This document shows, piece after piece, positions 8,401-54,471 of a stretch of 64,000 bases of DNA. A program made the translations under genes and the position numbers. The DNA is from a virus (Duplodnaviria > Caudoviricetes). Position 1 is the stretch's first letter. Each line of letters begins with the position of its first letter. The notes beneath the pieces were generated by a model. The model had not been told where the DNA came from, did no database searches, and was given only the letters and a program-made list of their open reading frames with translations. The stretch spans positions 960-64,959 of the IMG/VR virus record IMGVR_UViG_3300046373_000059. The stretch is one strand, 5' to 3'.

Positions 8401-11400
8401 TTGCGAGGATTGCCGTAGGGATCGGCGCCGGTAATCAGCTCGATCTTCAGGCCGGTCTTCTTGATTTCCTGGTACTGCGCCAGCGTTTCTTTAATCATGG
8501 CGTCATACGATGCCTTGACCTTCGGATCGCTTGGCGCATGCTCCATCGAATCGAACGCGGCGGCTATGGCCTTGGCGCGTTGCGGATCGACCTTCACATA
8601 GTCGCGCTGCACAGGCGCAGTGATGCCAGCCGCTTTGCGGTAGCGCTCGGCTGCTTCCTTGGCCGGTGCGAACGGGCCGAAGGTTACTGGCTTGCCATCG
8701 ACGACGACGGAGGATTGGAGTCCACGGAGCGGGATAGCGCGATTACCTTGCCCTGGTGTTGCATCCAGTAATTCAGGCTTTCCTGAAACTCCGTTTGGCT
8801 CTTGAACTTTTCGCGCAAGGGTTTGCTTTCCTCCAGCTTCTGCACGTACTGTTCCTGCGTTTGCTTTGCCATCATATACACCTTTATCTCGATTGCTGTT
8901 GTACTCGCCCCAGGCTTTTGCAATGGCTTCCTGCACGGCAGCGCGGTCGCTTACCATGCGGTCGATGTCGAAGTGCGAACCGGCTGCCACGCGGATGGCC
9001 TTGGTCAGCATCTGCATTACCTTGTACGCCACCTTGCGGAACAGGCTTTCGTCGTGCTCGGCCATCTTCTGCCAGAACTTCGGATCGACCGCGACGGCGC
9101 CGCCGATGTCGGCCATCACTTCATTGAAGCCTTGTTGCAGGCCGATCTGGTTCCCGGCTGGAGCACGAGAATTCTCATACTCCATACGGCTTTCCACAAG
9201 GCCCGGCTTCATGTACTGCACGACGAAATCTTCCAGCTTGGACGCCAGCTTCTTGTCAGTCATTTGCAGGATGTGCGATACCTCGTGGAACGTGATGGGG
9301 ATCAACGGGGATTTCTCGCCGGTCGCCACATACACGTCGCCCTTGAATGCGACGCCGTGGAAAACATCGTTGTCGGTCACGTAGGTGAGGCGCGTGCCGA
9401 ATGCCTTGTCGGCCACGGCCTGCACGATGCGCTGCTCAGGCGTGACATTGCGCACCACGCTGATCTTGACGCCTTCGCTTTCCATGGCCTTGTTCAATTC
9501 GCTGATGCGGTTGTCGTCGGCCACGCGGGACAGCGCGGTTTCCGGCGCCGCCTTCGGTGCCAAGGTGAAGCCGCCCTTTGGGCTTGGCACGGCCTCGACA
9601 TCCAGCTTATTGTCGGCGGCGAACTGCTGTGCAGCGGCTTGGTCGGCAAACGCGCCGGTCGCCTGCACGGCCAGTTCCTTCGGCATTACCTTTGCGTCCT
9701 GGGCCTGGGCCACGGCGGGCGATGCTGGCGCTGCTGCCGTAGCGGCGGCCTGCGTCGATGCGAATGGCTGCGTGGTTTCGCCGTTCTTCAGCCAGTCCTT
9801 CAGGCCGTCAACGGTCGTTTCGCTGATGTTCTCGCCGCCCTTCCAGCCGGGCTGGTAGTTGTCGTAATAGGCAGCCTTCGCTTCTTCCAGCGTGTTGAAG
9901 CCCAGCATGACCTTGTGCTCGTCGAACTTCCCATCAGGGCTGGCCTGATCCACGACAAACGCCTTGGGGCTGTTGACGGCAGGGCCGACGAAGGTATCGA
10001 CGCCAGCCGCGTCCGCGCCCTTGGTGCCCTTGATGTAGCCGTAGTGCTCGGTCATCAGGGTACTCCATGGGGTCTGGTCTTCGGACACGCCGCTACGCAC
10101 CGAACCCTGTGGATTTTCCACCTTGACGGTCAAGCCTTGGAAGTCTGCTTCGCCCAGCTTGGCGTTGTTCGCAGCTTGCTGCGCTGGCGTGGACAGGCGG
10201 CGCTCGTTCAGCGCGGAGTCGGCAGCATCATGCGCAGCCAAGTCGAATGGCGATTCCATGCGCAGGCTGGCAGGGTTCGTCGGGTTGATCTTGGCCGCGC
10301 CGAGATTCGTTGCCTGGACGACGGTGCCATCGGGGCGCGTGACTTCTACAGGCGCAGCGGCAGCCGCAGCTTCCAGCGGTGCAGCGGCGGCTGCTTCGGT
10401 ATTGGCAATAGGTGCCTGTGGCGCGAGGCGTGCAGCGGCCTCAATCGGGCCAGCAGGCGGCGCCAGTGGCGCAGCTACATTACCGGCGAGGTCGGCACGT
10501 CCAGCGTCAGCAGGATTGCCAGATACTCGATCTGGCTGTTGCGCGGTTCCGGCAGGCTGTCCTTCGACCACAGGCTGATTTCGTCCGGTGTCGCCAGTCC
10601 CGCTTCCACCAGCTCCAGCATCTGCAACGACGTTAGCGGGTTGTACAGCGGAACCCACGACAGGCTTCGCTGCACCAGATGGCTGTCCATTATCAGACTC
10701 AGTTCCTCGTCCTGGTTTTCCATTATCAGCCTCGACTGGTGTAACAGCGAAGGAGCCGCCGACAGTCGGATGTGGCGTGACTTCAAACGGCGTGCCGGTT
10801 TCCGTTGTCATGCGGTTTGCGCGGGCCTGGGCGGCTTCCATCGTCTTGATGGGAACCGATACCCCAGGCTGCTCTGGCGCTGCCTTGGCGGCTGCGCTCG
10901 TGATTGGGCCTTGGATGTTTGCGCCGCCGCCCATGACGCCACCAGCCAGCGCGCCCTGAGCTGCGGCATTCGCTGCGCCCTGGTTCCACTGCTGGCCGGT
11001 TGCGAGATTCTGTGCCACCTGTTCCTGATACGATTGCGGTGCTTCTTCCAGGATGCCTTCGCTCAATGCGCCCTCGCCAACACGGCGCAGCAAGCCCTTG
11101 GTCGTGGCCTGATGGCCGCCAGCCAGCATCGTGTCGATGTCGTGGATGCCCAGCTTCTGCGCGATCTTGCCGCCGACGACATTCAGGCCGCCAGTAATCG
11201 CGCCGGATGTGGCGGCGATGCCAGCCTGTTCCGGCGTCAACAGGCCATTCGCCGTGGATTGGCGTACCTGCTCTGCCGTCTGACCAGCGGATACAGCGCC
11301 CTCGCCCAGCGCGCCAGCCAGGACGGGGCTGATCGCGGCGGCGCCACGGGCCACACGGCCAATCGCGCCGCCCAGGCCCATGGATGGCAGGGACTCGACT

Positions 11401-11777
11401 GCGCTGTTGACGATGGTGGATGGATTCTGCGCGGCGGCAACGACGGTAGGGACGAAGCCTTCAGCGGTGTTGACCTTCTCCTGGGCAGCCTTGTACTCAG
11501 GCGAATAGTAATCCGCCATGATGTTCTTGGTTTCCTTGGTCTGGATGCCAGCCTGTTCGGCCAGCTTGCCGACAGCGCCGCCAGAAGGGATGTCCGCCAA
11601 GCCGATGATGGCTTCAGGCACGCCGACGATACCACGGGCCAAGGACAGTCCCACGTCGGATGCCATGCGCTTGATGGGCGATGCTGGCTTTGGAATGGCA
11701 GAAGCGAAAACGCCCATGTCGTCCTGCTTCTGCGGGACTGTGGACGCGAACGCGCCCAGCTCTTTATCGTTATCCAT
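5496..11777 (-). CDS. Large polyvalent internal virion/ejection protein: InPase domain, HExxH metallopeptidase, HDxxGH domain, LPD38-like C-terminus
   Basis: 2093 aa; VENPQGSVRSG..HYGYIKGTKGAD..FDEHKVMLGF (about 9800-10150); HEVSH at 9273-9287; HDYFGH at 8211-8228; IRIPKPFEVG/NDPFRNRAIE near the C-terminus. Confidence 0.85.
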   Translation of the reverse strand: MDNDKELGAFASTVPQKQDDMGVFASAIPKPASPIKRMASDVGLSLARGIVGVPEAIIGLADIPSGGAVGKLAEQAGIQTKETKNIMADYYSPEYKAAQEKVNTAEGFVPTVVAAAQNPSTIVNSAVESLPSMGLGGAIGRVARGAAAISPVLAGALGEGAVSAGQTAEQVRQSTANGLLTPEQAGIAATSGAITGGLNVVGGKIAQKLGIHDIDTMLAGGHQATTKGLLRRVGEGALSEGILEEAPQSYQEQVAQNLATGQQWNQGAANAAAQGALAGGVMGGGANIQGPITSAAAKAAPEQPGVSVPIKTMEAAQARANRMTTETGTPFEVTPHPTVGGSFAVTPVEADNGKPGRGTESDNGQPSGAAKPVVGSAVQPANVVADAGAGGSGTGDTGRNQPVVEGQPAGTAQQPDRVSGNPADAGRADLAGNVAAPLAPPAGPIEAAARLAPQAPIANTEAAAAAPLEAAAAAAPVEVTRPDGTVVQATNLGAAKINPTNPASLRMESPFDLAAHDAADSALNERRLSTPAQQAANNAKLGEADFQGLTVKVENPQGSVRSGVSEDQTPWSTLMTEHYGYIKGTKGADAAGVDTFVGPAVNSPKAFVVDQASPDGKFDEHKVMLGFNTLEEAKAAYYDNYQPGWKGGENISETTVDGLKDWLKNGETTQPFASTQAAATAAAPASPAVAQAQDAKVMPKELAVQATGAFADQAAAQQFAADNKLDVEAVPSPKGGFTLAPKAAPETALSRVADDNRISELNKAMESEGVKISVVRNVTPEQRIVQAVADKAFGTRLTYVTDNDVFHGVAFKGDVYVATGEKSPLIPITFHEVSHILQMTDKKLASKLEDFVVQYMKPGLVESRMEYENSRAPAGNQIGLQQGFNEVMADIGGAVAVDPKFWQKMAEHDESLFRKVAYKVMQMLTKAIRVAAGSHFDIDRMVSDRAAVQEAIAKAWGEYNSNRDKGVYDGKANAGTVRAEAGGKQTLARKVQEPNGVSGKPELLDATPGQGNRAIPLRGLQSSVVVDGKPVTFGPFAPAKEAAERYRKAAGITAPVQRDYVKVDPQRAKAIAAAFDSMEHAPSDPKVKASYDAMIKETLAQYQEIKKTGLKIELITGADPYGNPRNAILDVVNNNHLWVYPTTSGFGGTESANVDISGNPLLAPVDEKIGDHQLVANDVFRIVHDYFGHIKEGVGFRAEGEENAWQQHASMYSDLARPAMTTETRGQNSWVNFGPFAEFNKTANGADTQYAPQKVGLMPEWTSTNEKPDLAFSRTPPDWLSQVPGMTPQIAQKVGLWVPEKTIGERFTEMKQDLGKKLVQGIVDQFAPIKALDMKAYMQARLSKSADGGLEAMLNYGKLSLDADGAIKVDNTGGFIDTMKQLGGEQDRFFSWVAGNRAAELKTEGKENLFTDTDISALKSLNQGTTADGKNRTALYTKVLKDLNGFSKSILDIAEKSGMIDGAERHKWEKDFYVPFYRVLEDDGKAVGPRNLAGLTNQYAFKKLKGGKDNLNDLMQNTVLNWSHLLSASLKNQAAATTLDAAQKLGVAHNVTSSTKGSVFVLKNGKEMHYVVDDPFIADAVSSLAFSGMKGGVIDIATKAKRMLSFGVTFGPTYKIRNIIRDQLQAIAANPMSLNVAKNLADGIKYSSKDNPMYAQMLAGGGLFRMGSAYEENRAAHLKNLIGTLPAGSIMDTPSKIKGMLNKAYDGWMELGDRGETITRAAIYTQMIANGASHLEASYNTRDSMDFGLQGAWPAVRLLTQTVPFMNARLQGLYKLGRAMQDDPRRFATVLGATTIATIALMLANRDDDDWKRREEWDRDNFWWFKTGGHAIRIPKPFEVGAMATIAERGLDMILDGMDAKARDRFATRLYHIVMDNLSMNPVPQLVKPAVDLYANNDPFRNRAIETPGMEKLSKSERIGGNTTAMAIMLGKAGVLSPVQIDYMIAGYFGWLGSHIAMAADTPLRPAMNLPEKAEKKVDEAFFVGDWVKELPANQSRYVEEFYKQAVQVREAQADVLHYKKLGNLEKAKELLADNKELVMQAPKFRMASASISKINLRIQQVQASSKMDASQKRTEVDRLSAMRNKIAERVMK
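8684..8872 (-). CDS. Nested out-of-frame gene B (62-63 aa, MAKQTQEQYVQKLEE...) inside the polyvalent protein gene
   Basis: AAAGGTG before ATGATG; third-position GC bias moves from the host frame to this frame. Confidence 0.6.
   Translation of the reverse strand: MAKQTQEQYVQKLEESKPLREKFKSQTEFQESLNYWMQHQGKVIALSRSVDSNPPSSSMASQ
10475..10723 (-). CDS. Nested out-of-frame gene A (82 aa, MENQDEELSLIM...) inside the polyvalent protein gene
   Basis: GAGG-6 nt-ATG; CTG/GTG/GAC/AGC/CCG codons in this frame while the host frame turns A/T-ending. Confidence 0.65.
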   Translation of the reverse strand: MENQDEELSLIMDSHLVQRSLSWVPLYNPLTSLQMLELVEAGLATPDEISLWSKDSLPEPRNSQIEYLAILLTLDVPTSPVM

Positions 11778-43603: not shown

Positions 43604-44395
43604 TCGCTATATGGGGGTTTCCTCATACCCTTCGCGGGCGCGGCTGCTGGATGACCAGTCCAGCCCTACCATCCAGCAGGTCAAAGCCGGATGTAGAGGA
43701 CAAACCCCATATAGCGACAAAATAAACGATTGCGCGGGCCTGTAGGTTCCCAGGTGTCAGGCGGTCGTAACGCTTTCGTTATCCCGCGCTTATCGCCTTG
43801 TACTCGCTTGGCACTGGCCTTCCCCCGCAGGTTGCACCAGCTCGTCCGCTTTCCAAGTGAGGCAGCTCAGGCCATCATCGCCACGCCCCCACAGCAAGCG
43901 AAGATGGGCGTTCCTGAGCCGCCTCACTTGCCGCCTCGTGAGAGGCAACAAGCGGGGAGTCTAATTCCTCCCTGCCATAAAGGCTCGTTTCCAGATTTTC
44001 GGAAGGGACTCCCGGCCCTTGCTTACTCGATTGTGTCCGCCTTCCGGTACGTGTTGCATGTAGGTGCCGGATTCTTTCCATCCGGCGTAAGTCACGGCAT
44101 ATGCCTTCCGTCCTCGGCACGAACCCGGCATTTTCGTTCATAGCTACAGGTCTGCATAAGCAATCCCGAGTGCGTCACGCCTAATGATCCTTCGTCGTTC
44201 TTTCCTGTTGCAATTCTTGCCGGTCTTACCCGGCTCAGTCCCTAGCATGAGGCAGCTTTTTTAGCACATTGCACGGAGCCAAACCGCGCTTGGACATGAT
44301 CGAGCAAGTTTGGCCCACCTATCTGGTGGCTGCCGCTGCGCCATTTCCGGCTGGCTCTTGCTCGACGGATTCCATTTTACATGAGCTGCGGCAGG
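43604..44395. ncRNA. Candidate large structured noncoding RNA region (three base-paired domains)
   Basis: No credible ORF; many stems of 7-18 bp, G-U pairs and GNRA loops; see findings. Confidence 0.6.
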
Positions 44396-44477
44396 TATTT
44401 TCCAGCGCTTCTGCTGCGTGGCTGCAACACAACAGGTTGTATATACGACTTTCTTACGGTATCCGTGAAAATAGTCC

Positions 44478-44506
44478 TTGAACTACCGCTTTCCGTAACC
44501 TATGCT
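44478..44506 (+). promoter_or_regulatory. sigma70-type early promoter
   Basis: TTGAAC-17 nt-TATGCT upstream of the early operon; imperfect palindromes at about 44436-44449 and 44454-44469. Confidence 0.7.
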
Positions 44507-44752
44507 GGCATTAAGTTCTAGCGAACGAGTTGCTTCCAGCAGAAAGAAATGGCCTCGGCCCTACATCACCGCCTCGCTAGATACGAAAAAGAAAGCACGA
44601 ACGGGCCACACAACGCTGGCCTGCGGTTCCAGGCTGATCCCTGGGTCAAGCACCGATGTGAAGCACGCGAAATATCGAAACACCACATACAGCTTCAGTT
44701 GCTGCCTCGTGACAGGGGGCAGCTCCGGGCGCTGTGCCTGCAAGGAGAAATC

Positions 44753-45121
44753 ATGAAACACTTATGGGAAGTGAAACACAGTTACTACTGCCAGGAAGGT
44801 AACTACTTCAGCAATCACTGCCACTTTGAATATAAAAGCTGGCAAGACTTCATCGACGAAATGGGCGATGCTGACATGGATTACAACCTGATCTACCGCT
44901 GGGACTGGAAAGAAGAAGCGGATGACGATGGGAAGTCAACATTCAATGGCGACGTGAATTACCGCAATGGCAAACTCATGCTGTTCTATATGGGACAGCG
45001 GAAAGCCAAGGCGACAAGCTGCGAAGTAGACGTATGCCGCGCAGACGAGGACGCCATCATCGCGTTCATGAAGCCACACTGGCAATACATGCTTGCCTTG
45101 TGGTCGCCGCTTGCAGAATAA
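44753..45121 (+). CDS. Early hypothetical protein (122 aa, aromatic/acidic)
   Basis: AAGGAG RBS before ATG 44753. Confidence 0.8.
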   Translation: MKHLWEVKHSYYCQEGNYFSNHCHFEYKSWQDFIDEMGDADMDYNLIYRWDWKEEADDDGKSTFNGDVNYRNGKLMLFYMGQRKAKATSCEVDVCRADEDAIIAFMKPHWQYMLALWSPLAE

Positions 45122-45190
45122 ACAGCTCCAGCCATAGCGCCCCACCACGGACGCTATTACGGGCGCTGTGCCCTCTTACCGGAGAAAATC

Positions 45191-45466
45191 ATGTCATCCT
45201 GGACTCCCCCACCAAACCACTGGAACCCCATCGGGCACTTCTACTCGATCATCCCGATGTATGAAGGCGACCTGTACAAGTATCAGGGCATCGCCACGGA
45301 AGGCAACATCAGCCATCTGCGCGAGATATTCCCTGATGGCGTGCTGTCGTCGGACTACATCGCTGACCGTGTGAAGCGTGGCGAGTTCGAGCTGCGCGGC
45401 GAGCTGGTCGCAGAGAACATCGTCGATACCGAAGGCGCCAGCAGCCTTCCAGGCTACCTCAGATAG
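45191..45466 (+). CDS. Early hypothetical protein
   Basis: GGAG RBS; lies between repeat copies. Confidence 0.75.
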   Translation: MSSWTPPPNHWNPIGHFYSIIPMYEGDLYKYQGIATEGNISHLREIFPDGVLSSDYIADRVKRGEFELRGELVAENIVDTEGASSLPGYLR

Positions 45467-45526
45467 CACCAGCAGATGCCCCGCGTGCGAGGCATCTACG
45501 GGTCTTATCCCGGATGGAGAATTATC

Positions 45527-45667
45527 ATGAACGCGATCCGCAGCAAGATCGCCGCAGTCGAGCACCACATCATCTTCGCTATATGGGGGATGCTGCCCGT
45601 GTCGGCCAAGGGAGCGGTCTACACCTTCTGGCGAGCACATCGCCGCAATCACTGTTTCAAAAAATAG
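45527..45667 (+). CDS. Early small protein (46 aa)
   Basis: GGAG RBS before ATG 45527. Confidence 0.65.
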   Translation: MNAIRSKIAAVEHHIIFAIWGMLPVSAKGAVYTFWRAHRRNHCFKK

Positions 45668-45677
45668 GAGCCTTATC

Positions 45678-45881
45678 ATGGAATCGACTATCAACGGCCA
45701 CACCACGAAAGAGGAACTGAATCGTGGCAATATCTTCCCCTACATGGTGTACGCCTACCAGCGCGGCGACGTGATGAAACACGGCATCGTCAAGCCTAAC
45801 GGCCAAGTCATCGAAGGCTTTGCCACGCACGAAGCTGCTGAAGCCTTCGCCCTGAGCCTGAAGCTCGCAGCAGGCGGCTGA
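45678..45881 (+). CDS. Early small protein
   Basis: AGGAG RBS. Confidence 0.7.
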   Translation: MESTINGHTTKEELNRGNIFPYMVYAYQRGDVMKHGIVKPNGQVIEGFATHEAAEAFALSLKLAAGG

Positions 45882-45882
45882 C

Positions 45883-46065
45883 ATGGACAGCCACAATGAA
45901 CTGATGCCCTACCCTGACCTTCCCACTCCCACGCTGGAAGAGGGGCAAAGCCACGGCGTCATCCTGTCGGGCGAACTGATCTACCTGGGCCAATCGCGCG
46001 ACGTGGCCCGCCTGATCCTGAATTCCATCAGCTTCCCGATGGTCAGTATCGGCAATCTGAATTAA
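45883..46065 (+). CDS. Early small protein
   Basis: Coupled; stop overlaps a repeat copy. Confidence 0.6.
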   Translation: MDSHNELMPYPDLPTPTLEEGQSHGVILSGELIYLGQSRDVARLILNSISFPMVSIGNLN

Positions 46066-46199
46066 AGCTCCAGCTACAGCGCCCGCCTGGACGCTGTTAC
46101 GGGCGCTTTTCCCGGTAATGGCCTGCATCAGCCATCACAGAATGACGCATCGCATGGGCATCCGCCCCCTTCCAATCCCCCCACTTTCAAGAGGTAGTT

Positions 46200-46415
46200 A
46201 TGCCCCATCCATCCATCCGCGCCGTCCTGGTGCGCCTGCGTCACAAGGCCCACGAAATCGGCCACGTCGTTTGCCATAAAGGCGAACACTTGTTCCACTC
46301 CGCTTACCTCGGCATCGTGTCCGTCGAGGCACACGGGTTTTACCGCTACGCGGCTGGCGTCACGCTGTTCTTTATCGTGGCGGACTTCCTGCTGTCGTTC
46401 GCTAAGGAGGCATGA
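46200..46415 (+). CDS. Small His-rich membrane protein
   Basis: GAGGT RBS; C-terminal TM segment. Confidence 0.65.
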   Translation: MPHPSIRAVLVRLRHKAHEIGHVVCHKGEHLFHSAYLGIVSVEAHGFYRYAAGVTLFFIVADFLLSFAKEA

Positions 46416-46564
46416 TGCTTGCCATCCTTAAATCGCCGCACGTCAAGCGCGTGCTGGTGCTGAAGGCCATCGTTGCGACCGGCCTTACGCTGTCCCACTT
46501 CTTCCCGCAGCAAGTCGCGCATGTGGCCTTCCTGACCAACATGCTGTGGCTCCTGGCCTTCTAA
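46412..46564 (+). CDS. Small membrane protein (50 aa)
   Basis: AAGGAGG RBS; hydrophobic; stop overlaps a repeat copy. Confidence 0.65.
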   Translation: MMLAILKSPHVKRVLVLKAIVATGLTLSHFFPQQVAHVAFLTNMLWLLAF

Positions 46565-46640
46565 AGCTCCAGCTACTGCGCAGCGCCTCCCTCACGGTGC
46601 TGCGCAGTGTCGGGCGCTTTGCCCTTAACCGGAGAAAACC

Positions 46641-46769
46641 ATGAAGCAAATTATCCCGAAGGTATGTCGGGCTGCACGCTGCAAAGCGGACAGTTTCCTG
46701 ATTAAAGTCGCCGCCGCTTATGTCGTCTTTGTGGCCCTGGTCATGATCTTCAACGACTCGGACGGCTGA
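46641..46769 (+). CDS. Small membrane peptide (42 aa)
   Basis: GGAG RBS after a repeat copy; one TM segment. Confidence 0.6.
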   Translation: MKQIIPKVCRAARCKADSFLIKVAAAYVVFVALVMIFNDSDG

Positions 46770-46770
46770 C

Positions 46771-47232
46771 ATGGACATCCTCAACATCGCGGCCCACGGC
46801 CTGCTTGCCCCGGATGCAGCTCTTGCCTTGACGCGGCTCTGCGTCGGCACGTTCTTCGCCATATCCGGCTTCAACAAACTCTTCAACGTCGGGCGCCATA
46901 ACTCGCTGACGGCGAACCTGCGCAAGAATCACATCCCTGCGCTGGGCTTTATGCAATGGTGGGTTCCCGGCTGGGAATTCGCATCCGGCGTGATGCTCGC
47001 CATCGGCCTGCTGTCTGCCTTCAATGCTGGCGTGCTGATGATTATCTGCGTCGTCGCCTGCTGCTGCGAAGCGAAGGCTAAGGTGGCGGCCTACCATCCG
47101 ATCAATCGCGGCGATTGGGTAGCCGATTGGCTCTACCTGCCAGAAGTGCTCTACCTGTTCCTGCTGGCCGTCATCGTCCTGGCTGGCACAGGCCAGTACA
47201 GCATCGACGCGCTGATCTTCCCGCTGTCCTGA
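46771..47232 (+). CDS. DoxX-family membrane protein
   Basis: LTRLCVGTFFAISGFNKLF...EFASGVMLAIGLL...GTGQYSID. Confidence 0.85.
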   Translation: MDILNIAAHGLLAPDAALALTRLCVGTFFAISGFNKLFNVGRHNSLTANLRKNHIPALGFMQWWVPGWEFASGVMLAIGLLSAFNAGVLMIICVVACCCEAKAKVAAYHPINRGDWVADWLYLPEVLYLFLLAVIVLAGTGQYSIDALIFPLS

Positions 47233-47297
47233 CAGTACCAGCCGTAGCGCCGTGACAGGGCGCTACCACGGGGATTGTCCCGCTTTTGGAGTAGACC

Positions 47298-47495
47298 ATG
47301 AAATCCGTATCCATCACGATGAACCCCCGCGCACATACGGTGCAGATGCGGGCCAATAACGAGCCGGTGATAACGCTGTCCTTCGCCGGTCGAAGTGAGG
47401 CCGATGTCAAGGACGCGCTGCTGTCCCTGGCATCGCTCGCGTTCAAGAAGTTGAACGAATTTCCAGTTGAAGAAGTCCCGGCGTTTGCTGGCTGA
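47298..47495 (+). CDS. Early small protein
   Basis: GGAG RBS after a repeat copy. Confidence 0.65.
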   Translation: MKSVSITMNPRAHTVQMRANNEPVITLSFAGRSEADVKDALLSLASLAFKKLNEFPVEEVPAFAG

Positions 47496-47529
47496 TCCAT
47501 CACCCCTGACCCCCACCAAGGAGAACGAA

Positions 47530-47802
47530 ATGGCTACGAAAACCTGCTACATGAATATCTATCGCAGCGGCTGGTTTCACCGCGAAGGCAAACCCAATAC
47601 CTTAGACCGCCACGCTGGCGATCTGTACGATTCACGCGAACAGGCCGTGGCCGACATCGACCCGCCGTCGCACTACATTGCCACGGTGGCTGTCCAGTGG
47701 GAAGACCCGGAGGACATCGTTGCAAATCCCGCCGACAGCGTGCCAGTCGCCCTGTCGGTATCCCGCAAACGCTTCCGTGAAACCGAAGGAGTAGCAGCAT
47801 GA
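47530..47802 (+). CDS. Early hypothetical protein
   Basis: AAGGAG RBS before ATG 47530. Confidence 0.7.
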   Translation: MATKTCYMNIYRSGWFHREGKPNTLDRHAGDLYDSREQAVADIDPPSHYIATVAVQWEDPEDIVANPADSVPVALSVSRKRFRETEGVAA

Positions 47803-47996
47803 TCGACGACCTCGACCAGTACCGAAACCGGCTCAAGGGTTTTGACTGGTATTTCGCTTACGCTGACGACGATGGCGAGTATCGCCGTGGCAAGCGTGAG
47901 CACGAAGAGCTGGCCGAAGCGCAGAAGCGCCTCGATCCAAGTGGCGCAATCTGGAACGAATACAGCCCACTTGGCTACAGCATACGCCGCAAATGA
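47799..47996 (+). CDS. Early small protein (DWYFAYADD motif)
   Basis: AAGGAG RBS; motif recurs in phage early proteins. Confidence 0.7.
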   Translation: MIDDLDQYRNRLKGFDWYFAYADDDGEYRRGKREHEELAEAQKRLDPSGAIWNEYSPLGYSIRRK

Positions 47997-48068
47997 CAGC
48001 ACCAGCTAATGCCTCGCTTCGGCGGGGCATTGTCGGGGATTGTCCCGGTTCACATAAGGAGAATAATC

Positions 48069-48875
48069 ATGACATCGCATATCCGCTCGCGCACGTTTGA
48101 CTGGACAGTAACGAAAGCCGTGGACGGCTGGAAGCCTAACTGCTGTCCTAATTTCGATCCAGGCTTGGCCCACGTCGTCGCACATGACATGATCGAGCAC
48201 CTGGACGACAGGTCTGCATTCGATGGCGAGCTGCGCGCCTTCGGCGTCACGATGTACGGGCGTATGCACGAAAGCCCGCATAAAATGTACGAAGCCAGCG
48301 CCAGCGATTTGAGTGTCTTCCTGGCCCTGCAAAACTACAATGTGCCGAAGCCGCCAAGCAAGCTGGCAAACAAACCGCTCGATGAAATTGGCGAGCATAT
48401 GCTGCGCCGCCTGTTGCGCGAAACGGAAATTAATTCCGCCAGCCCCCACGCTCTGACGAGCCGTAACGACAACAGGAAACTCTTCACTGACGCCGAAAAA
48501 TTCCGCAGCGTAGTCGATGACGTGCGCGGCTGGATTCGCATCGGATACCGCGTGGCAGCGCGCCGGTATAAGAAGCTCGGCCACGAAGGTCTGGATCATC
48601 TGTTTGGCAAGCTGGCCGATGCCATCATTGCCGATGCGCGCAACGAATTCCCCAAGCCTGGGGATACGCTGAAGATTGATCTTGACCTGAAAACGTTCAA
48701 GTTCACGCTGGAACGCGGCCAGCTTCAGCCAGCGCAAATCCTCAAGGCAGAAGCTGCGGCCCGCGTGGCTGATCCTGATTACGACAAGCCGCGCCACCAT
48801 CGCAGCCCACATCAGCAAGAGCTGGACGAAATCCTGCGCCAGATTTTCGGCGGCGCAGCAGCTTTTCCAAACTAA
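48069..48875 (+). CDS. Early protein with possible metal-binding HDxxEH...GELRAFG motif
   Basis: TAAGGAG RBS before ATG 48069. Confidence 0.7.
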   Translation: MTSHIRSRTFDWTVTKAVDGWKPNCCPNFDPGLAHVVAHDMIEHLDDRSAFDGELRAFGVTMYGRMHESPHKMYEASASDLSVFLALQNYNVPKPPSKLANKPLDEIGEHMLRRLLRETEINSASPHALTSRNDNRKLFTDAEKFRSVVDDVRGWIRIGYRVAARRYKKLGHEGLDHLFGKLADAIIADARNEFPKPGDTLKIDLDLKTFKFTLERGQLQPAQILKAEAAARVADPDYDKPRHHRSPHQQELDEILRQIFGGAAAFPN

Positions 48876-48943
48876 AGCTCCAGCTACAGCCCATCCCCGT
48901 GGGCTGTTACGGGCGCTTTGACCCGCAACGAAGGAGAAACATC

Positions 48944-49234
48944 ATGGCAATCTTAAACTGGAAGGTCAGCAAGGCAGACGGCAAGCTGATTAAAGCGATA
49001 GCAGAACGGGCCGTGAAGCTGTACACGAATCATGGCGCCGACCTGGATCAGCAGGATGTTGAAATGAGCATCACGGCTACCCACAACAACGGCACGCCGC
49101 TGCGCCTGCAAGAGCTGCTGGACGCGGACGACTTCAATCTGTCGCACGACGTTGGCGGCATGATCCGGCACATTAACCACGACACAGGCAAGCTCGAAAA
49201 TTTCTTCGTGCCACGCTTTGCCGTTCGCCAGTGA
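48944..49234 (+). CDS. DUF6874-like protein
   Basis: LRLQELLDADDFNLSHDVGG..RH....TGKL...FVPRF. Confidence 0.75.
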   Translation: MAILNWKVSKADGKLIKAIAERAVKLYTNHGADLDQQDVEMSITATHNNGTPLRLQELLDADDFNLSHDVGGMIRHINHDTGKLENFFVPRFAVRQ

Positions 49235-49241
49235 GGACATC

Positions 49242-49532
49242 ATGAGCGACCACAGAAAACCTAAGCCCGAAGTAGTCATCAGCTTCGCGCCCGTCGATAA
49301 GCGCATCGACATCACGGACGACTGGTACGAGCAACAGCTCAAGCTGCGCGCCGTCCACGAAGCGGCGCCGTTCCTGCTGGCGGCGCTGGAGCGGATGGTG
49401 AAGCTGCATCGGCTGATGGCGAAGGATATGAATTGGGGCGCAAGCGCGCTCCAGGCCGAAACCATCATGGAAATGAACGAGGCGCCAAGTCAGGCAATCG
49501 GCGCCATCAAGCGCGCAGGGGGCAAGGTATGA
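49242..49532 (+). CDS. Early hypothetical protein
   Basis: GAGGA RBS; AAPxLLxAL motif. Confidence 0.7.
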   Translation: MSDHRKPKPEVVISFAPVDKRIDITDDWYEQQLKLRAVHEAAPFLLAALERMVKLHRLMAKDMNWGASALQAETIMEMNEAPSQAIGAIKRAGGKV

Positions 49533-50140
49533 GCTACGAAATCCTGAAGCGCGACATGGCCGCCATGCTGCATATCGCAGCGAAGCAGGACATCCGCTGG
49601 TACTTGAACGGCGTGCTCCTGGAAATCGGCAAGACGGAAGGCCGTCTGGTCGCCACGAACGGGCACATCATGGGCGTGCTCAAACTTTACGGCACTGGCG
49701 ACATAGCACCTGGGCAATACATCATCCCGCGTGATGTGATTGAGTTTTTCAAGCCCACAAGGGATGGCTCAAACAAAGTCTTCCTGTCGCACGACGGCCC
49801 AGGCAATTTGTGGTCGATGTTCGATCCCTATACGCGGGTAACGAAGACCTTTGAAATGATCGACGCGAAGTTCCCCGACTACACCAGGGTGATGTCAGAC
49901 AAACTGGTAAGCGGTACGGCTGCGCAGCTTGACGTTACATATCTGGTGGCGTTCCAGAAGGCCAACATCATGTTGACCGGCAAGCGCCAATTCAACCAGC
50001 TCTATATTGGTCACGACAAGTCCCGCGCTGTAGTCAATTTCGATGATGGACGCTTTACCGGCGTCATCATGGGAATGCGGAAAGATAACAACGAAAGTTT
50101 CTACAACACGCCAGCATGGGCAACACGACATGCCGACTGA
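49529..50140 (+). CDS. Truncated DNA polymerase III beta-clamp-like protein
   Basis: DIRWYLNGVLL...LVATNGH...IDAKFPDYTRV; only about 200 aa. Confidence 0.8.
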   Translation: MSYEILKRDMAAMLHIAAKQDIRWYLNGVLLEIGKTEGRLVATNGHIMGVLKLYGTGDIAPGQYIIPRDVIEFFKPTRDGSNKVFLSHDGPGNLWSMFDPYTRVTKTFEMIDAKFPDYTRVMSDKLVSGTAAQLDVTYLVAFQKANIMLTGKRQFNQLYIGHDKSRAVVNFDDGRFTGVIMGMRKDNNESFYNTPAWATRHAD

Positions 50141-50212
50141 AAGGGCCAGCGTATGCGTCTTCGGGCGCATACACGGGAGCCTTTCCCGATAACCCCACTG
50201 AAGGAGCACATC

Positions 50213-50515
50213 ATGAAAAACCAATCGCAAGAGCTGCAACAGATGACTGCCACGATACTGGAACAACAAGCCAGTGGGGTAGCCTACCAGCGCGGCCTGC
50301 ACGCCGTCACGACGGTTCGCCTGGGCCAGATTTTCACGGACATCAAGGCCGCCGCAATCGCCGCAGGCTATGCCGCGCACACGCAAGAGCATCACCTGTT
50401 CATTGAAGGCTTCCTGGATGGCCTGCAAGACAACGGCGTGACGATCAGCCTGGACGATGCTGGCATCGTCGTCGGCCTGAGCGTGAATCAAGAATCCCAT
50501 CCAGTGTGGCAGTAA
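50213..50515 (+). CDS. Early hypothetical protein
   Basis: AAGGAG RBS after the last repeat copy. Confidence 0.7.
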   Translation: MKNQSQELQQMTATILEQQASGVAYQRGLHAVTTVRLGQIFTDIKAAAIAAGYAAHTQEHHLFIEGFLDGLQDNGVTISLDDAGIVVGLSVNQESHPVWQ

Positions 50516-50898
50516 TGAAAACCGATCCCCGCGTGGCGTGCGCAAACGCTGAAGAAAGACGCGGCTGGGCCATCCTGCATGATCTGGTCGCCCATCCGCT
50601 GTTGATCCTGACCGGCTACTCGATATGGGCGCTGGCCTTCCACGACTACACGTCGCACAAGGCATGGCCGCGTCCGCCGTACACATGCCGCAAGGAAACG
50701 AAGGTGGCGACGATCTACGGCAGGCTGACGGTCATTGAAGTGGCGCCTGGGGTCTACTCGATCCAGCACGGCTTCGTGGCCCACAAGTTCGTCACCACTG
50801 CCGCCAATCGCCTGCAAGCCGTGCATAAGGCGCTCGACTGGTTCGACGTGCTTGCGGTCGAAGTCGGCGGGATTTTCAAACCACGCTTGTACGTTTAA
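50506..50898 (+). CDS. Early hypothetical protein
   Basis: WAILHDLVAHPL...FHDYTS.KAWP motif; start may be ATG 50515. Confidence 0.7.
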   Translation: MAVMKTDPRVACANAEERRGWAILHDLVAHPLLILTGYSIWALAFHDYTSHKAWPRPPYTCRKETKVATIYGRLTVIEVAPGVYSIQHGFVAHKFVTTAANRLQAVHKALDWFDVLAVEVGGIFKPRLYV

Positions 50899-50909
50899 GG
50901 AGGAATGTT

Positions 50910-51122
50910 TTGAGACACGAACTTAGCCCGACAGTCGATCAGATTAAGGCGGCCAGGAAAGCCGCTGGATTGACGCAGGAGGAAGCCGCAGACCTGTTGT
51001 ACCGCAATAGCCTACAGCGCTGGAGCGAATGGGAAACCGGCCTCACGAACATGCCCCCAGCAGATTGGGAGCTGTTCCTCATAAAGACAAACCAGCATCC
51101 CGACTTCCGCAAATTTCCTTAG
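50910..51122 (+). CDS. Small XRE-family HTH regulator closing the early operon
   Basis: AAGGAGG RBS with TTG start; IKAARKAAGLTQEEAADLL...WSEWETG...M. Confidence 0.85.
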   Translation: MRHELSPTVDQIKAARKAAGLTQEEAADLLYRNSLQRWSEWETGLTNMPPADWELFLIKTNQHPDFRKFP

Positions 51123-54051: not shown

Positions 54052-54471
54052 TTACAGGCCGCTGCTGGAGTTCAGCACGTCATGCGTGAAGGACGAGCAC
54101 GAGACAACCTGCGTCGCCGTGATGGTCGTGGTGGACAGCACCAAGTTTGCGGACGAGGTGCCGACGCTGCCATCCAGTACGACGGTAGTGCCATCGGACT
54201 TCAGGGCGCGGAAGAAGGTAGCCGTTCCGCTCGCATCGGCGGACGAGTCCGACGTGATGGCATTGAACGTCAGCAGGCCGCCAGATGCAGCAGGCGCCGC
54301 CGTAGCGTTGAAGCGCAGCTCGGCCAGGAGCGTGTTGCCCGACAGCGCCGTGTCAGCCGTGGCTGGCTGCGTGCCGCTGTAAATGCGCAGGTAGCCGCTA
54401 TTCAGCAAGGTAGCAAGCGCATCAGCCTGAGCGTTGACAGTGACGTTTGCGAGCTGGGTATTGAGTGCCAT
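54052..54471 (-). CDS. Virion structural protein related to 21832-22611
   Basis: LRIYSGTQPATADTALSGNTLLAEL...GTATFFR. Confidence 0.75.
   Translation of the reverse strand: MALNTQLANVTVNAQADALATLLNSGYLRIYSGTQPATADTALSGNTLLAELRFNATAAPAASGGLLTFNAITSDSSADASGTATFFRALKSDGTTVVLDGSVGTSSANLVLSTTTITATQVVSCSSFTHDVLNSSSGL

What the first reader, a model, noticed from the sequence alone, without database searches (positions are those of the whole stretch)
44689..50188. Nine-copy covarying structured element anchored on stop codons divides the early operon into gene cassettes
Seen: nine 50-60 nt intergenic copies with the layout P1 - (T/A/G)CCAGC - variable hairpin P2 - CGGG - N - P1' - CCC(G); the first copy is more degenerate (TTCAGT, CCTG). 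P1 changes sequence but keeps pairing (AAAGC/GCTTT, ACAGC/GCTGT, GATAG/TTATC, GACAG/TTGTC, GAAAGG/CCTTTC). P2 varies in length and sequence; two copies carry C(UUCG)G tetraloops and several have G-U pairs on the + strand, which points to function as RNA. In 8 of 9 copies P1 overlaps or abuts the stop codon of the upstream gene (TAAAGC, TGACAG, GATAGC, TGAAAG); only the first, promoter-proximal copy does not. In 8 of 9 a GGAG RBS and ATG follow within about 25 nt. CGGG can pair with the upstream CC or with the downstream CCCG, whose loop is P1', so two competing folds or a tight pseudoknot are conserved. Inference: a phage RNA device that could be a self-cleaving or nuclease-processing site yielding separate early mRNAs, a switch coupling ribosome termination to initiation at the next gene, or a recombination joint for swapping anti-defence cassettes. 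Known analogies are T7 early RNase III sites and T4-type PeSL cassettes, but I do not recognise this consensus.
Basis: partly seen in the sequence, partly recalled or inferred. Interest (0 to 1): 0.9.

Follow-up and report, generated by a model that had tools for sequence, protein, structure and literature searches.

The report
Repeated RNA hairpins punctuating phage operon
An uncultured soil phage separates the small genes of one operon with nine copies of a conserved folded RNA hairpin that starts at the upstream stop codon; it most resembles the RNase III cutting signals of phage T7, but no cutting has been shown.

Summary
A covariance model finds exactly nine + strand copies (60-71 bits) and nothing else in the window. 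Each is a continuous, imperfect hairpin of about two helical turns: P1 (5-6 bp, covarying), CC:GG, an invariant A.G mismatch, G:C, a C.A or U.G pair, then a variable P2. A conserved CCC(G) tail follows. About 92% of cells pair, against 33-47% in slid controls.

The family has no Rfam match. It occurs in at least 48 further viral or metagenomic contigs, and the genes that follow it fall into more than 30 families.

The upstream stop codon lies in the P1 5' strand in 8 of 9 window copies and 31 of 35 copies of a second set (random control 5%). G.U pairs favour the sense strand 57 to 11. The freed 3' half refolds into a CGGG/CCCG mini-hairpin in 37 of 38 copies. The pseudoknot reading is sterically unlikely.

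Best reading (about 0.4): an intercistronic mRNA processing and stabilising signal of the T7 RNase III type. Its conserved sequence also acts as a joint for gene gain and loss. The function is inferred; no RNA data exist. This scan has noted analogous but unrelated hairpin families in other phages.

The parts
44685..44744 (+). copy c1, in the leader before the first gene. Degenerate core (TTCAGT, tail CCTG). No upstream gene.
   Evidence: R1 hit of 62.8 bits; fold -24.9 kcal/mol; no stop codon at P1
45118..45178 (+). copy c2 between g1 (44753-45121) and g2 (45191-45466). Stop TAA 45119-45121 abuts P1 ACAGC.
   Evidence: 65.3 bits. g1 plus half of c1/c2 is missing in relative L009
45459..45517 (+). 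copy c3 between g2 and g3. Stop TAG 45464-45466 lies inside P1 (GATAG/TTATC, with a G.U pair).
   Evidence: 60.5 bits
46060..46118 (+). copy c4 after g5. Stop TAA 46063-46065 lies in P1. The only copy with no SD/ATG close behind; the next gene starts at 46200.
   Evidence: 70.6 bits. L009 carries about 120 extra nt directly after its c4
46559..46629 (+). copy c5 between g7 and g8. Longest P2 (arms of 26 positions). Stop TAA 46562-46564 lies in P1.
   Evidence: 59.8 bits
47228..47287 (+). copy c6 between g9 (DoxX-like) and g10. Stop TGA 47230-47232 overlaps P1.
   Evidence: 63.1 bits. g10 (47283-47502) is an insertion starting at the 3' edge of c6, relative to L009
47992..48052 (+). copy c7 between g12 and g13. 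UUCG loop. Stop TGA 47994-47996 overlaps P1.
   Evidence: 63.2 bits. The weak RsmY/istR Rfam hits here rest on the apical hairpin only
48870..48928 (+). copy c8 between g13 and g14 (DUF6874). Stop TAA 48873-48875 lies in P1.
   Evidence: 63.3 bits
50136..50192 (+). copy c9 between g16 (beta-clamp-like) and g17. UUCG loop. Stop TGA 50138-50140 overlaps P1 (GAAAGG/CCTTTC).
   Evidence: 60.4 bits
44753..51122 (+). the operon the copies punctuate: 19 small genes. They are tightly packed or overlapping within blocks; the copies fill the long spacers. The last gene is a small HTH gene (50910-51122).

Best explanation
The element is a cis-acting structure in the polycistronic mRNA of the presumed early or accessory operon.

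In the intact transcript it is a helix of about 23 positions (two turns). Its conserved non-Watson-Crick core is CC:GG, A.G, G:C and C.A or U.G.

I infer that a host double-strand-specific endoribonuclease, most likely RNase III, recognises it. The mismatches would restrict cutting to the 3' arm, next to CGGG.

- The upstream message would then end in the stable P2 hairpin and keep its stop codon.
- The downstream message would begin with CGGG-N-P1'-CCCG. This refolds into a 4-5 bp 5'-terminal mini-hairpin just ahead of the SD.

Each gene block would thus become a separately protected mRNA, as at the T7 early RNase III sites.

Shown: the fold, covariation, sense-strand bias, stop anchoring, refolding potential and distribution. 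Inferred: the cleavage, the enzyme, the cut site and the stabilising effect.

As a side effect, the conserved 3' half plus SD (about 35 nt) acts as a homology patch at which gene blocks are gained and lost.
For: Fold and covariation
- Window copies: 92.0% paired. A5, 38 distinct copies from 12 sources: 92.8%. A6, 35 distinct copies from 37 further loci: 92.7%. Slid controls give 33-47%.
- RNAalifold on the MAFFT alignment agrees.

RNA on the sense strand
- G.U 57 cells against A.C/C.A 11.
- The position next to the core is C.A in 13 and U.G in 18 of 38 copies. These two pairs are isosteric in RNA (established knowledge).

A substrate shape suited to a dsRNA-binding enzyme
- The 5' and 3' arms are equal in length in 37 of 38 copies, with median 23 positions and range 20-34.
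- The idealised E. coli RNase III substrate is 22 bp. Mismatches at the target site favour single-strand cuts that leave stabilising 3' hairpins (passages of PMC3867540).

The conserved tail
- CCC(G) pairs with nothing in the long helix.
- The isolated 3' fragment folds with CGGG paired to the tail in 37 of 38 copies. Mean energy is -6.9 against -2.9 kcal/mol for shuffles.
- The base after CGGG is Watson-Crick paired in the long helix in only 4 of 38 copies (6 of 38 with G.U). It forms a fifth pair of the mini-hairpin in 25 of 38 (output).

Layout as in T7
- Copies fill the only long spacers, and genes within blocks overlap or nearly touch.
- One copy lies in the leader.
- T7's early map has the same pattern. 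Its five spacers also form a within-genome family of a conserved motif plus a covarying apical stem.

Other points
- No sigma-70-like promoter or U-tract terminator excess at the copies.
- The SD is unpaired in the MFE fold of 5 of the 8 junctions folded (c1, c3, c6, c8, c9); in c2 and c5 it pairs with a CUCC and in c7 it is part of a weak long-range pairing.
- The element is generic: the genes that follow it fall into more than 30 families.
Against: - No RNA ends, no expression data and no enzyme assay: no RNA run holds the region.
- The host is unknown, so its RNase III preferences cannot be checked.
- No phage-encoded RNase III or dsRBD was found in 5 of 5 genomes. The enzyme must therefore be assumed from the host.
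- Strong conservation of specific bases (A13, G81, CGGG, CCC in 36-38 of 38 copies) exceeds what generic dsRNA recognition needs. It could mean a sequence-specific protein partner instead.
- Stop-codon anchoring (31 of 35) is not required by a processing model. It points to a link with terminating ribosomes, or simply to genome compaction.
- A close relative by terminase (G002, 71% identity) has no copy at all, so the device is dispensable.
- The sequence does not resemble the T7 sites.
Confidence: 0.4

Rival explanations
1. A ribosome-actuated two-state junction without cleavage. The ribosome terminating on the stop codon in P1 melts the 5' arm, and the freed 3' half snaps into the CGGG/CCCG mini-hairpin. 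The base of the helix holds the stop codon and the next SD close together, which favours hand-over or re-initiation, or sets the ratio of neighbouring gene products.
For: - Stop codon within -2..+3 of the first P1 position in 36 of 44 hits.
- Within -3..+3 in 31 of 35 distinct copies of the second set, against 78 of 1505 random positions.
- The stop sits in different registers (TGAC, TAAAG, GATAG, GACTGA, GACTAG) while P1 pairing is kept.
- Mini-hairpin potential in 37 of 38 copies.
- SD and start follow within about 9-30 nt.
Against: - c1 and its L009 counterpart lie in the leader with no upstream gene. L024's copy starts 12 nt after the stop. So termination in P1 is not essential.
- The SD is left unpaired by the MFE fold in only 5 of the 8 junctions folded, and no copy-wide SD-masking partner exists, so there is no consistent on/off logic.
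- Compaction alone could push stops into the only sequence-flexible 5' part of the element.
Confidence: 0.2
2. An operator for a sequence-specific RNA-binding protein, from phage or host. It would bind the invariant CCAG/CGGG core with its A.G mismatch and co-regulate all gene blocks of the operon (translational repression or protection).
For: - Invariant core bases in 38 of 38 copies, flanked by freely covarying helices.
- Each phage group carries its own variant (CCAGC..ACGGG against CCAGT..GCGGG).
Against: - No candidate partner was found. Genes shared by element-bearing G005 and G007 but absent from element-free G002 and G012 are replication or recombination genes and unknowns.
- The core lies about 35 nt from the SD, too far to occlude it.
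Confidence: 0.12
3. Primarily a DNA-level device: short conserved joints, acting as single-strand hairpins or plain homology, at which gene cassettes are exchanged. This would be analogous to PeSLs of T4-type phages or to integron attC sites.
For: - Window against L009: all three indels touch a copy, and 5 of 6 HSP ends lie within 25 nt of a copy edge.
- The g1 block is bounded by the shared 3' halves of c1 and c2.
- Over all pairs, 71 of 234 HSP ends lie within 25 nt of an edge against 23.9 expected. The pairs are not independent.
- L175 and L178 share little more than the copies themselves.
- The phage encodes a RecT-like annealing protein.
Against: - No tyrosine recombinase or Y1 transposase in 5 of 5 genomes.
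- Symmetric arms without extrahelical bases, unlike attC.
- The sense-strand G.U bias, fixed orientation with transcription and fixed spacing to the SD fit RNA better.
- P2 is copy-specific and stable between orthologous copies, which limits homology.
- Indels must fall between genes in any case.
Confidence: 0.1
4. A transcription-level signal: a pause, or a factor-dependent terminator or antiterminator hairpin.
For: A stable hairpin followed by a conserved single-stranded stretch (CCCG-NNN-AC in 22 of 23 hits of the G003-G010 loci).
Against: - No U-tract. The terminator-like count is at or below shuffles (5 against 7.3).
- Nine antiterminator sites in 5.5 kb have no precedent.
- Stop anchoring is not explained.
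Confidence: 0.06
5. A new class of self-cleaving ribozyme.
For: Conserved bases embedded between variable helices; repeated between genes.
Against: - Only 1x1 and 2x2 symmetric mismatches.
- A tertiary pseudoknot is sterically unlikely.
- No hit to any ribozyme family at E up to 10.
Confidence: 0.03

Closest known systems
RNase III processing signals of the phage T7 early mRNA
   Same: - A repeated family within one genome.
- A helix of about two turns with non-Watson-Crick positions in the middle.
- Sits in the only long spacers of a host-transcribed operon of small genes, including one site in the leader before the first gene.
- Conserved flanks with a covarying apical stem (passages of PMC3867540).
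   Different: - No sequence similarity.
- Here the stop codon is built into the lower stem.
- The mismatches are 1x1 or 2x2 rather than a larger bubble.
- A conserved CCC(G) tail allows refolding.
- Cleavage is untested.
PeSLs (promoter-early stem-loops) of T4-type phages (Arbiol et al. 2010, PMC2839356; abstract read)
   Same: Short conserved regulatory repeats between small non-essential genes. Gene gain and loss between close relatives occurs at them.
   Different: PeSLs combine a strong sigma-70 promoter with a terminator. Here there is no promoter-like or terminator-like excess, the copies lie inside one transcription unit, and the structure covaries.
Integron attC sites
   Same: Imperfect hairpins conserved in structure rather than sequence, one after each promoterless gene block, starting at or near the stop codon, with a deviant first site (recalled knowledge).
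   Different: No integrase; symmetric arms without extrahelical bases; the wobble bias favours the sense strand.
REP/BIME elements and their RAYT transposases; REPs close to stop codons that lower upstream expression (recalled; the paper was not found)
   Same: Extragenic palindromes just after stop codons that act on mRNA stability and translation.
   Different: Not a host-wide repeat. The genome-contig scan gave 35 stretches, and the only one among the eight loci reaching E <= 0.001 with R1 scored 29.6 bits, far below the family's 49-71. No Y1 transposase. Confined to one operon.
Candidate structured RNAs from IMG/VR (DNAVirus_X set, PMC10690425; passages read)
   Same: That survey mined intergenic regions of the same collection for covarying motifs of similar size (median 65 nt), some just upstream of genes.
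   Different: It assigns no functions.
Analogous intercistronic hairpin families noted earlier in this scan on other phage genomes (e1-5940171, e1-5872981, e1-5963923, e1-2024488)
   Same: Stop-codon-anchored or two-state covarying hairpins between early genes. They were read as T7-like processing signals, with gene turnover at them.
   Different: Different genomes. Those notes are unchecked AI readings.

Membership tests
RNase III processing signals (T7 type) | Cleaved by RNase III in vivo or in vitro | not testable with these tools
RNase III processing signals (T7 type) | Irregular double helix of about 20-22 bp with mismatches or an internal loop at mid-helix | tested here: met
   Arms of median 23 positions, symmetric in 37 of 38 copies; reference length of 22 bp from PMC3867540
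RNase III processing signals (T7 type) | Placed in spacers between gene blocks of a polycistronic early transcript | tested here: met
   T7 map and spacer folds for comparison. That the operon is 'early' is inferred
RNase III processing signals (T7 type) | Sequence homology to the T7 sites | tested here: not met
   The T7 spacers share a different conserved motif
Any Rfam family, including known ribozymes, nut/put-like RNAs and sRNAs | Score at or above the family's gathering threshold | tested here: not met
   0 matches in the window. At E up to 10, only RsmY (23.9 against 57 bits), istR and sR44, all below threshold
PeSL cassettes | Sigma-70 promoter joined to a terminator stem-loop | tested here: not met
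   4 promoter-like sites against 3.5 in shuffles, and 5 terminator-like against 7.3. Two of the four promoter-like sites (48040, 48918) begin in the 3' tail of c7 and c8; no U-tract follows the copies
Integron attC | Associated tyrosine recombinase (IntI) | tested here: not met
   PF00589: 0 of 5 genomes; the control rang in 14 of 14
Integron attC | Extrahelical bases and unequal arms in the folded strand | tested here: not met
   Arms equal in 37 of 38 copies
REP/RAYT | Y1 (HUH) transposase and many copies in the host chromosome | tested here: not met
   PF01797: 0 of 5 genomes. Of the 35 genome contigs stretches only L030 reached E <= 0.001 with R1, at 29.6 bits against the family's 49-71. 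Only one exact pattern was scanned
Intrinsic terminators | GC-rich hairpin followed by a U run | tested here: not met
   The tail is CCC(G) in 36-37 of 38 copies
Stoperator-like repressor sites (recalled from mycobacteriophage L5) | Fixed-length DNA operator | tested here: not met
   The CGGG..CCCG spacing varies from 5 to 8 nt, and P1 and P2 covary

The most novel reading that the evidence does not exclude
The element is a ribosome- or nuclease-triggered two-state RNA junction that doubles as a cassette joint. The long helix is built on the stop codon. It is opened by termination or by cutting and refolds into a 5' mini-hairpin that licenses the next gene. Its invariant 3' half also lets whole genes be swapped between phages. 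Together this would be an integrase-free, RNA-level counterpart of an integron array for accessory or anti-defence genes.
Probability: 0.15. Interest if true: 0.8.

Novelty: new variant of a known kind. Interest (0 to 1): 0.55.

Why it matters
If these hairpins are processing signals, the T7 way of cutting an early polycistronic message into protected single units is widespread in uncultured soil phages, and it has evolved more than once with unrelated sequences.

The family gives a compact natural insulator of about 58 nt: stop codon, 3' cap, 5' cap and SD spacing in one unit. That could be tested as a part for synthetic operons.

It also marks, by sequence alone, the boundaries of fast-evolving accessory genes, which are likely anti-defence candidates. 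It makes the link between mRNA punctuation and modular gene exchange directly testable.

Tried and rejected
- **Pseudoknot (P1 together with CGGG/CCCG).** Rejected on sterics. Only 0-2 nt link P1' to CCCG, too short to cross a 5-6 bp stem. This is an inference, not a computation.
- **Known RNA families.** None. The RsmY and istR hits at c7 are below threshold and rest on the apical UUCG hairpin.
- **Promoter or terminator.** No excess. A possible sigma-70-like promoter upstream of c1 (about 44478-44506) was seen by eye only. It does not meet the tool's criterion.
- **Phage-encoded partner enzymes.** No integrase, Y1 transposase, RNase III domain or dsRBD in G000, G001, G005, G007 and G008.
- **Phyletic search for a partner gene.** I compared G005 and G007 (with the element) against G002 and G012 (without). 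It gave only replication or recombination genes, a virion-protein-like gene and unknowns.
- **CRISPR-repeat mimic, nut-like antiterminator, tRNA-like minihelix or RNase P substrate, SECIS or read-through signal.** I considered these from recalled knowledge and dropped them. P1 and P2 vary between copies, the tail is not CCA, TAA and TAG stops also occur, and the next gene is out of frame with its own SD.
- **Cultured phages.** None carries the element. The 6-kb region hit only a DUF6874-type gene of three Burkholderia phage records. A 71-nt copy gave no match. The terminase is under 30% identical to any listed phage.
- **G002 early region.** No alternative repeat family was found.
- **RNA evidence.** No RNA holder is listed and only one DNA run holds the region.
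- **The look-up of encoding contigs.** Two homologues of g13 from Logan assemblies (P0002, P0004) therefore could not be placed in context.
- **Literature.** Searches found no description of this motif. The supplements of PMC10690425, which may list it as an unnamed candidate, were closed.

Caveats on my own counts
- Alignments A3-A6 were fitted to the model, so pair counts lean towards the structure. A2 is plain MAFFT.
- The pattern fixed GCGGG-N-AT-N-GTCCCG-NNN-AC. P1' and the tail of set A6 are therefore biased, and P1 covariation there is limited.
- The stop-codon heuristic takes the longest upstream open frame. For three related copies (GACTAG type) it chose a frame ending 43 nt upstream, although a TAG lies in P1.
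- In one search, g18 was translated one base out of frame, and g16 from its second codon.
- HSP-end counts use every ordered pair of related genomes, so they are not independent.

Full report
**What the window is.** The window is bases 960-64959 of a 64,959-bp IMG/VR virus record with direct terminal repeats. It carries terminase, portal, major head protein and a 2,093-aa polyvalent virion protein on the - strand, and helicase, primase, ParB-like and RecT-like genes elsewhere. No cultured phage is close: the terminase is below 30% identity to any of 50,697 records. One DNA run from a soil metagenome holds the region. The finding lies in a + strand operon of 19 small genes (44753-51122) that ends in a small HTH gene.

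**The observation.** All nine copies exist as described. A covariance model built from them finds the nine copies at 59.8-70.6 bits. With filters off, no other + strand hit in 64 kb exceeds 13.5 bits. Every copy folds by MFE into the same long hairpin. RNAalifold on the plain MAFFT alignment predicts that fold too, with 17 pairs, 9 of them carrying compensatory changes. On the nine copies, 92.0% of cells pair against 33-47% when partners are slid, and 0 of 500 shuffles reach the observed covariation score.

**Anatomy.**
It runs P1 (5-6 bp), a 1x1 or 2x2 mismatch, C:G, C:G, A.G, G:C, a Y.R position, then P2.
- In 38 distinct copies from 12 sources, several positions are invariant: the A and G of the A.G mismatch, the two flanking G:C pairs, an A:U in P1 and a G:C/C:G step in P2.
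- The Y.R position is C.A in 13 copies and U.G in 18. This exchange is isosteric in RNA.
- The arms are equal in length in 37 of 38 copies, with median 23 positions and range 20-34. That is about two helical turns without bulges.
- G.U pairs on the + strand outnumber A.C/C.A, which would be G.U on the - strand, by 57 to 11. The selected fold is therefore that of the sense strand, most simply the mRNA.

**The 3' tail.**
- CCC(G) follows P1' after 0-2 nt in 36-37 of 38 copies. It has no partner in the long helix.
- Taken alone, the fragment from CGGG to the tail folds with CGGG paired to the tail in 37 of 38 copies. Mean energy is -6.9 against -2.9 kcal/mol for shuffles.
- The base after CGGG is Watson-Crick paired in the long helix in only 4 of 38 copies, 6 of 38 counting G.U. 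It supplies a fifth pair of this mini-hairpin in 25 of 38.
- The two folds exclude each other. Forming both as a pseudoknot would require 0-2 nt to span a 5-6 bp stem, which I reject on sterics.

**Position relative to genes.**
- In the window, 8 of 9 copies have the upstream stop codon in or abutting the 5' strand of P1, and 8 of 9 are followed by an SD and ATG. The exception to the second point is c4.
- Over 44 hits, the stop of the longest upstream frame begins within -2..+3 of the first P1 position in 36.
- In a second set of 35 distinct copies, it lies within -3..+3 in 31 and within -7 in all. The same heuristic at random positions gives 78 of 1505.
- The stop sits in several registers while pairing is kept.
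- It is not obligatory. c1 and its counterpart in L009 lie in the leader, and the single copy of L024 starts 12 nt after a TAG.
- Within blocks, genes overlap or nearly touch. The copies fill the long spacers.

**Distribution.**
- There is no Rfam match.
- A relative at 79% protein identity (L009/G001) has eight copies. A 1.3-kb metagenome contig has three. An 8-kb viral contig has one, next to a DoxX-like gene.
- Of 30 viral records related by terminase, 11 carry copies, counting the window's own record. These are the window's and mostly records at 67-94% terminase identity. G002, at 71%, has none, and neither do records at 59% identity or less.
- A pattern taken from those relatives found 47 stretches in IMG/VR. 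Of the 38 loci not already known, 37 gave model hits of 49-69 bits. These make 45 hits, 35 of them distinct, and 92.7% of their cells are paired.
- Counting the 10 other terminase relatives, L024, the metagenome contig and these 36 new contigs, at least 48 further contigs carry the element.
- The window has the largest array seen.
- The genes that follow the element fall into more than 30 families. The window's own operon genes have no homologue in the loci of G003-G010, apart from the terminal HTH gene in one locus. The element is thus more conserved than the genes it separates.

**Gene turnover at the copies.**
- Between the window and L009, the operon differs by three indels. These are g1 together with the adjoining halves of c1 and c2, about 120 nt directly after c4, and g10 directly after c6.
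- The g1 indel is bounded by the roughly 35-nt 3' half plus SD that c1 and c2 share. This is as expected for recombination between two copies.
- Among the more distant relatives, 'gene plus element' units come and go, and some pairs share little more than the copies.
- Over all ordered pairs, 71 of 234 HSP ends in the arrays lie within 25 nt of a copy edge against 23.9 expected. The pairs are not independent.
- No integrase or Y1 transposase is present in 5 of 5 genomes. Any exchange is therefore by homology; a RecT-like gene is present.

**Mechanism.** I rank an mRNA processing and stabilising signal first, at about 0.4.
- The helix has the length and symmetry of an RNase III substrate. Mismatches at the target site are known to give single-strand cuts that leave protective 3' hairpins (passages of PMC3867540).
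- A cut just 5' of CGGG would leave the upstream mRNA with its stop codon and the P2 hairpin. It would give the downstream mRNA a 5'-terminal mini-hairpin. This is the one model that uses every conserved part, including the tail.
- T7 shows the same genome logic. It has five long spacers, one of them in the leader, in an otherwise tightly packed early operon. Each holds a member of a within-genome hairpin family.
- No phage RNase III or dsRBD was found, so a host enzyme is assumed, as in T7.
- All of this is inference. There are no RNA data and the host is unknown.

The rivals are set out in the report sections:
- a ribosome-actuated switch without cleavage (0.2);
- an operator for a specific RNA-binding protein (0.12);
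- a mainly DNA-level cassette joint (0.1);
- a transcription signal (0.06);
- a ribozyme (0.03).

**Novelty.** The motif itself is uncatalogued in Rfam 15. Searches found no description of it. It may be among the 8,495 unnamed IMG/VR candidates of PMC10690425, whose supplements I could not open. The kind of element is known: T7 RNase III signals, and PeSL-like turnover at repeats (abstract of PMC2839356). This scan has noted analogous but unrelated families in other uncultured phages. I therefore class it as a new variant of a known kind. What is distinctive is the built-in stop codon, the invariant A.G core, the C.A/U.G exchange and the refolding tail.

Noticed in passing
window 50910-51122 (+): The last gene of the operon is a 70-aa HTH protein (HTH_31 at E 7.8e-7; faint Aca2/YdiL-like hit at E 0.0045, below cut-off). 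An operon of small unknown genes closed by such a repressor resembles anti-defence (acr-aca) loci.
   Followed up: partly
window 49529-50140 (+): g16 matches the central domain of the DNA polymerase III beta clamp in Pfam (29.7 bits), while the best PHROG is labelled 'RusA-like resolvase'. A copy in L205 also precedes a clamp-like gene.
   Followed up: partly
window 46771-47232 (+) and L024 2251-2676 (-): A DoxX-family membrane protein sits in the operon. A 48%-identical homologue lies one gene upstream of the single element copy in an otherwise unrelated 8-kb viral contig.
   Followed up: partly
window 46559-46658: With the SD included, the MFE fold of c5 pairs CUCC (at the P1/core junction) with the downstream GGAG while P2 and the mini-hairpin stay formed. 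In the c2 junction the SD also pairs with a CUCC, but a different one, in the tail just 3' of CCC. No single SD-masking partner is shared by the copies.
   Followed up: partly
L175 4449-4530, L180 11347-11428 and 12556-12637: Three copies in relatives carry a further nested hairpin of about 20 nt in the P2 apex, giving arms of 30-34 positions. Two of the inserts are nearly identical although the copies are not.
   Followed up: no
G002 (IMGVR_UViG_3300046474_000370), whole record: This 101-kb relative (terminase 71% identical) has no copy of the element. It lacks the window's primase, helicase and Ref-like nuclease module, but it shares the RecT-like gene that G005 and G007 lack. The element seems to travel with the early/replication half of a mosaic genome.
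   Followed up: partly
window 44001-44751: The leader upstream of g1, up to and including c1, is more conserved with L009 (92.6%) than the operon that follows (82-87%). A sigma-70-like TTGAAC-17-TATGCT at about 44478-44506 was seen by eye and is below the scan tool's criterion.
   Followed up: partly
window 5496-11777 (-): A 2,093-aa virion protein combines endolysin-like, minor-head-protein and DarB-like antirestriction PHROG matches, as in Bcep22-type podophages.
   Followed up: no
window 54052-54471 (-): A 139-aa protein (phrog_3758, labelled 'virion structural protein') is 82-83% identical in G005 and G007. That is as conserved as the major head protein, yet it lies in the replication region.
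   Followed up: no
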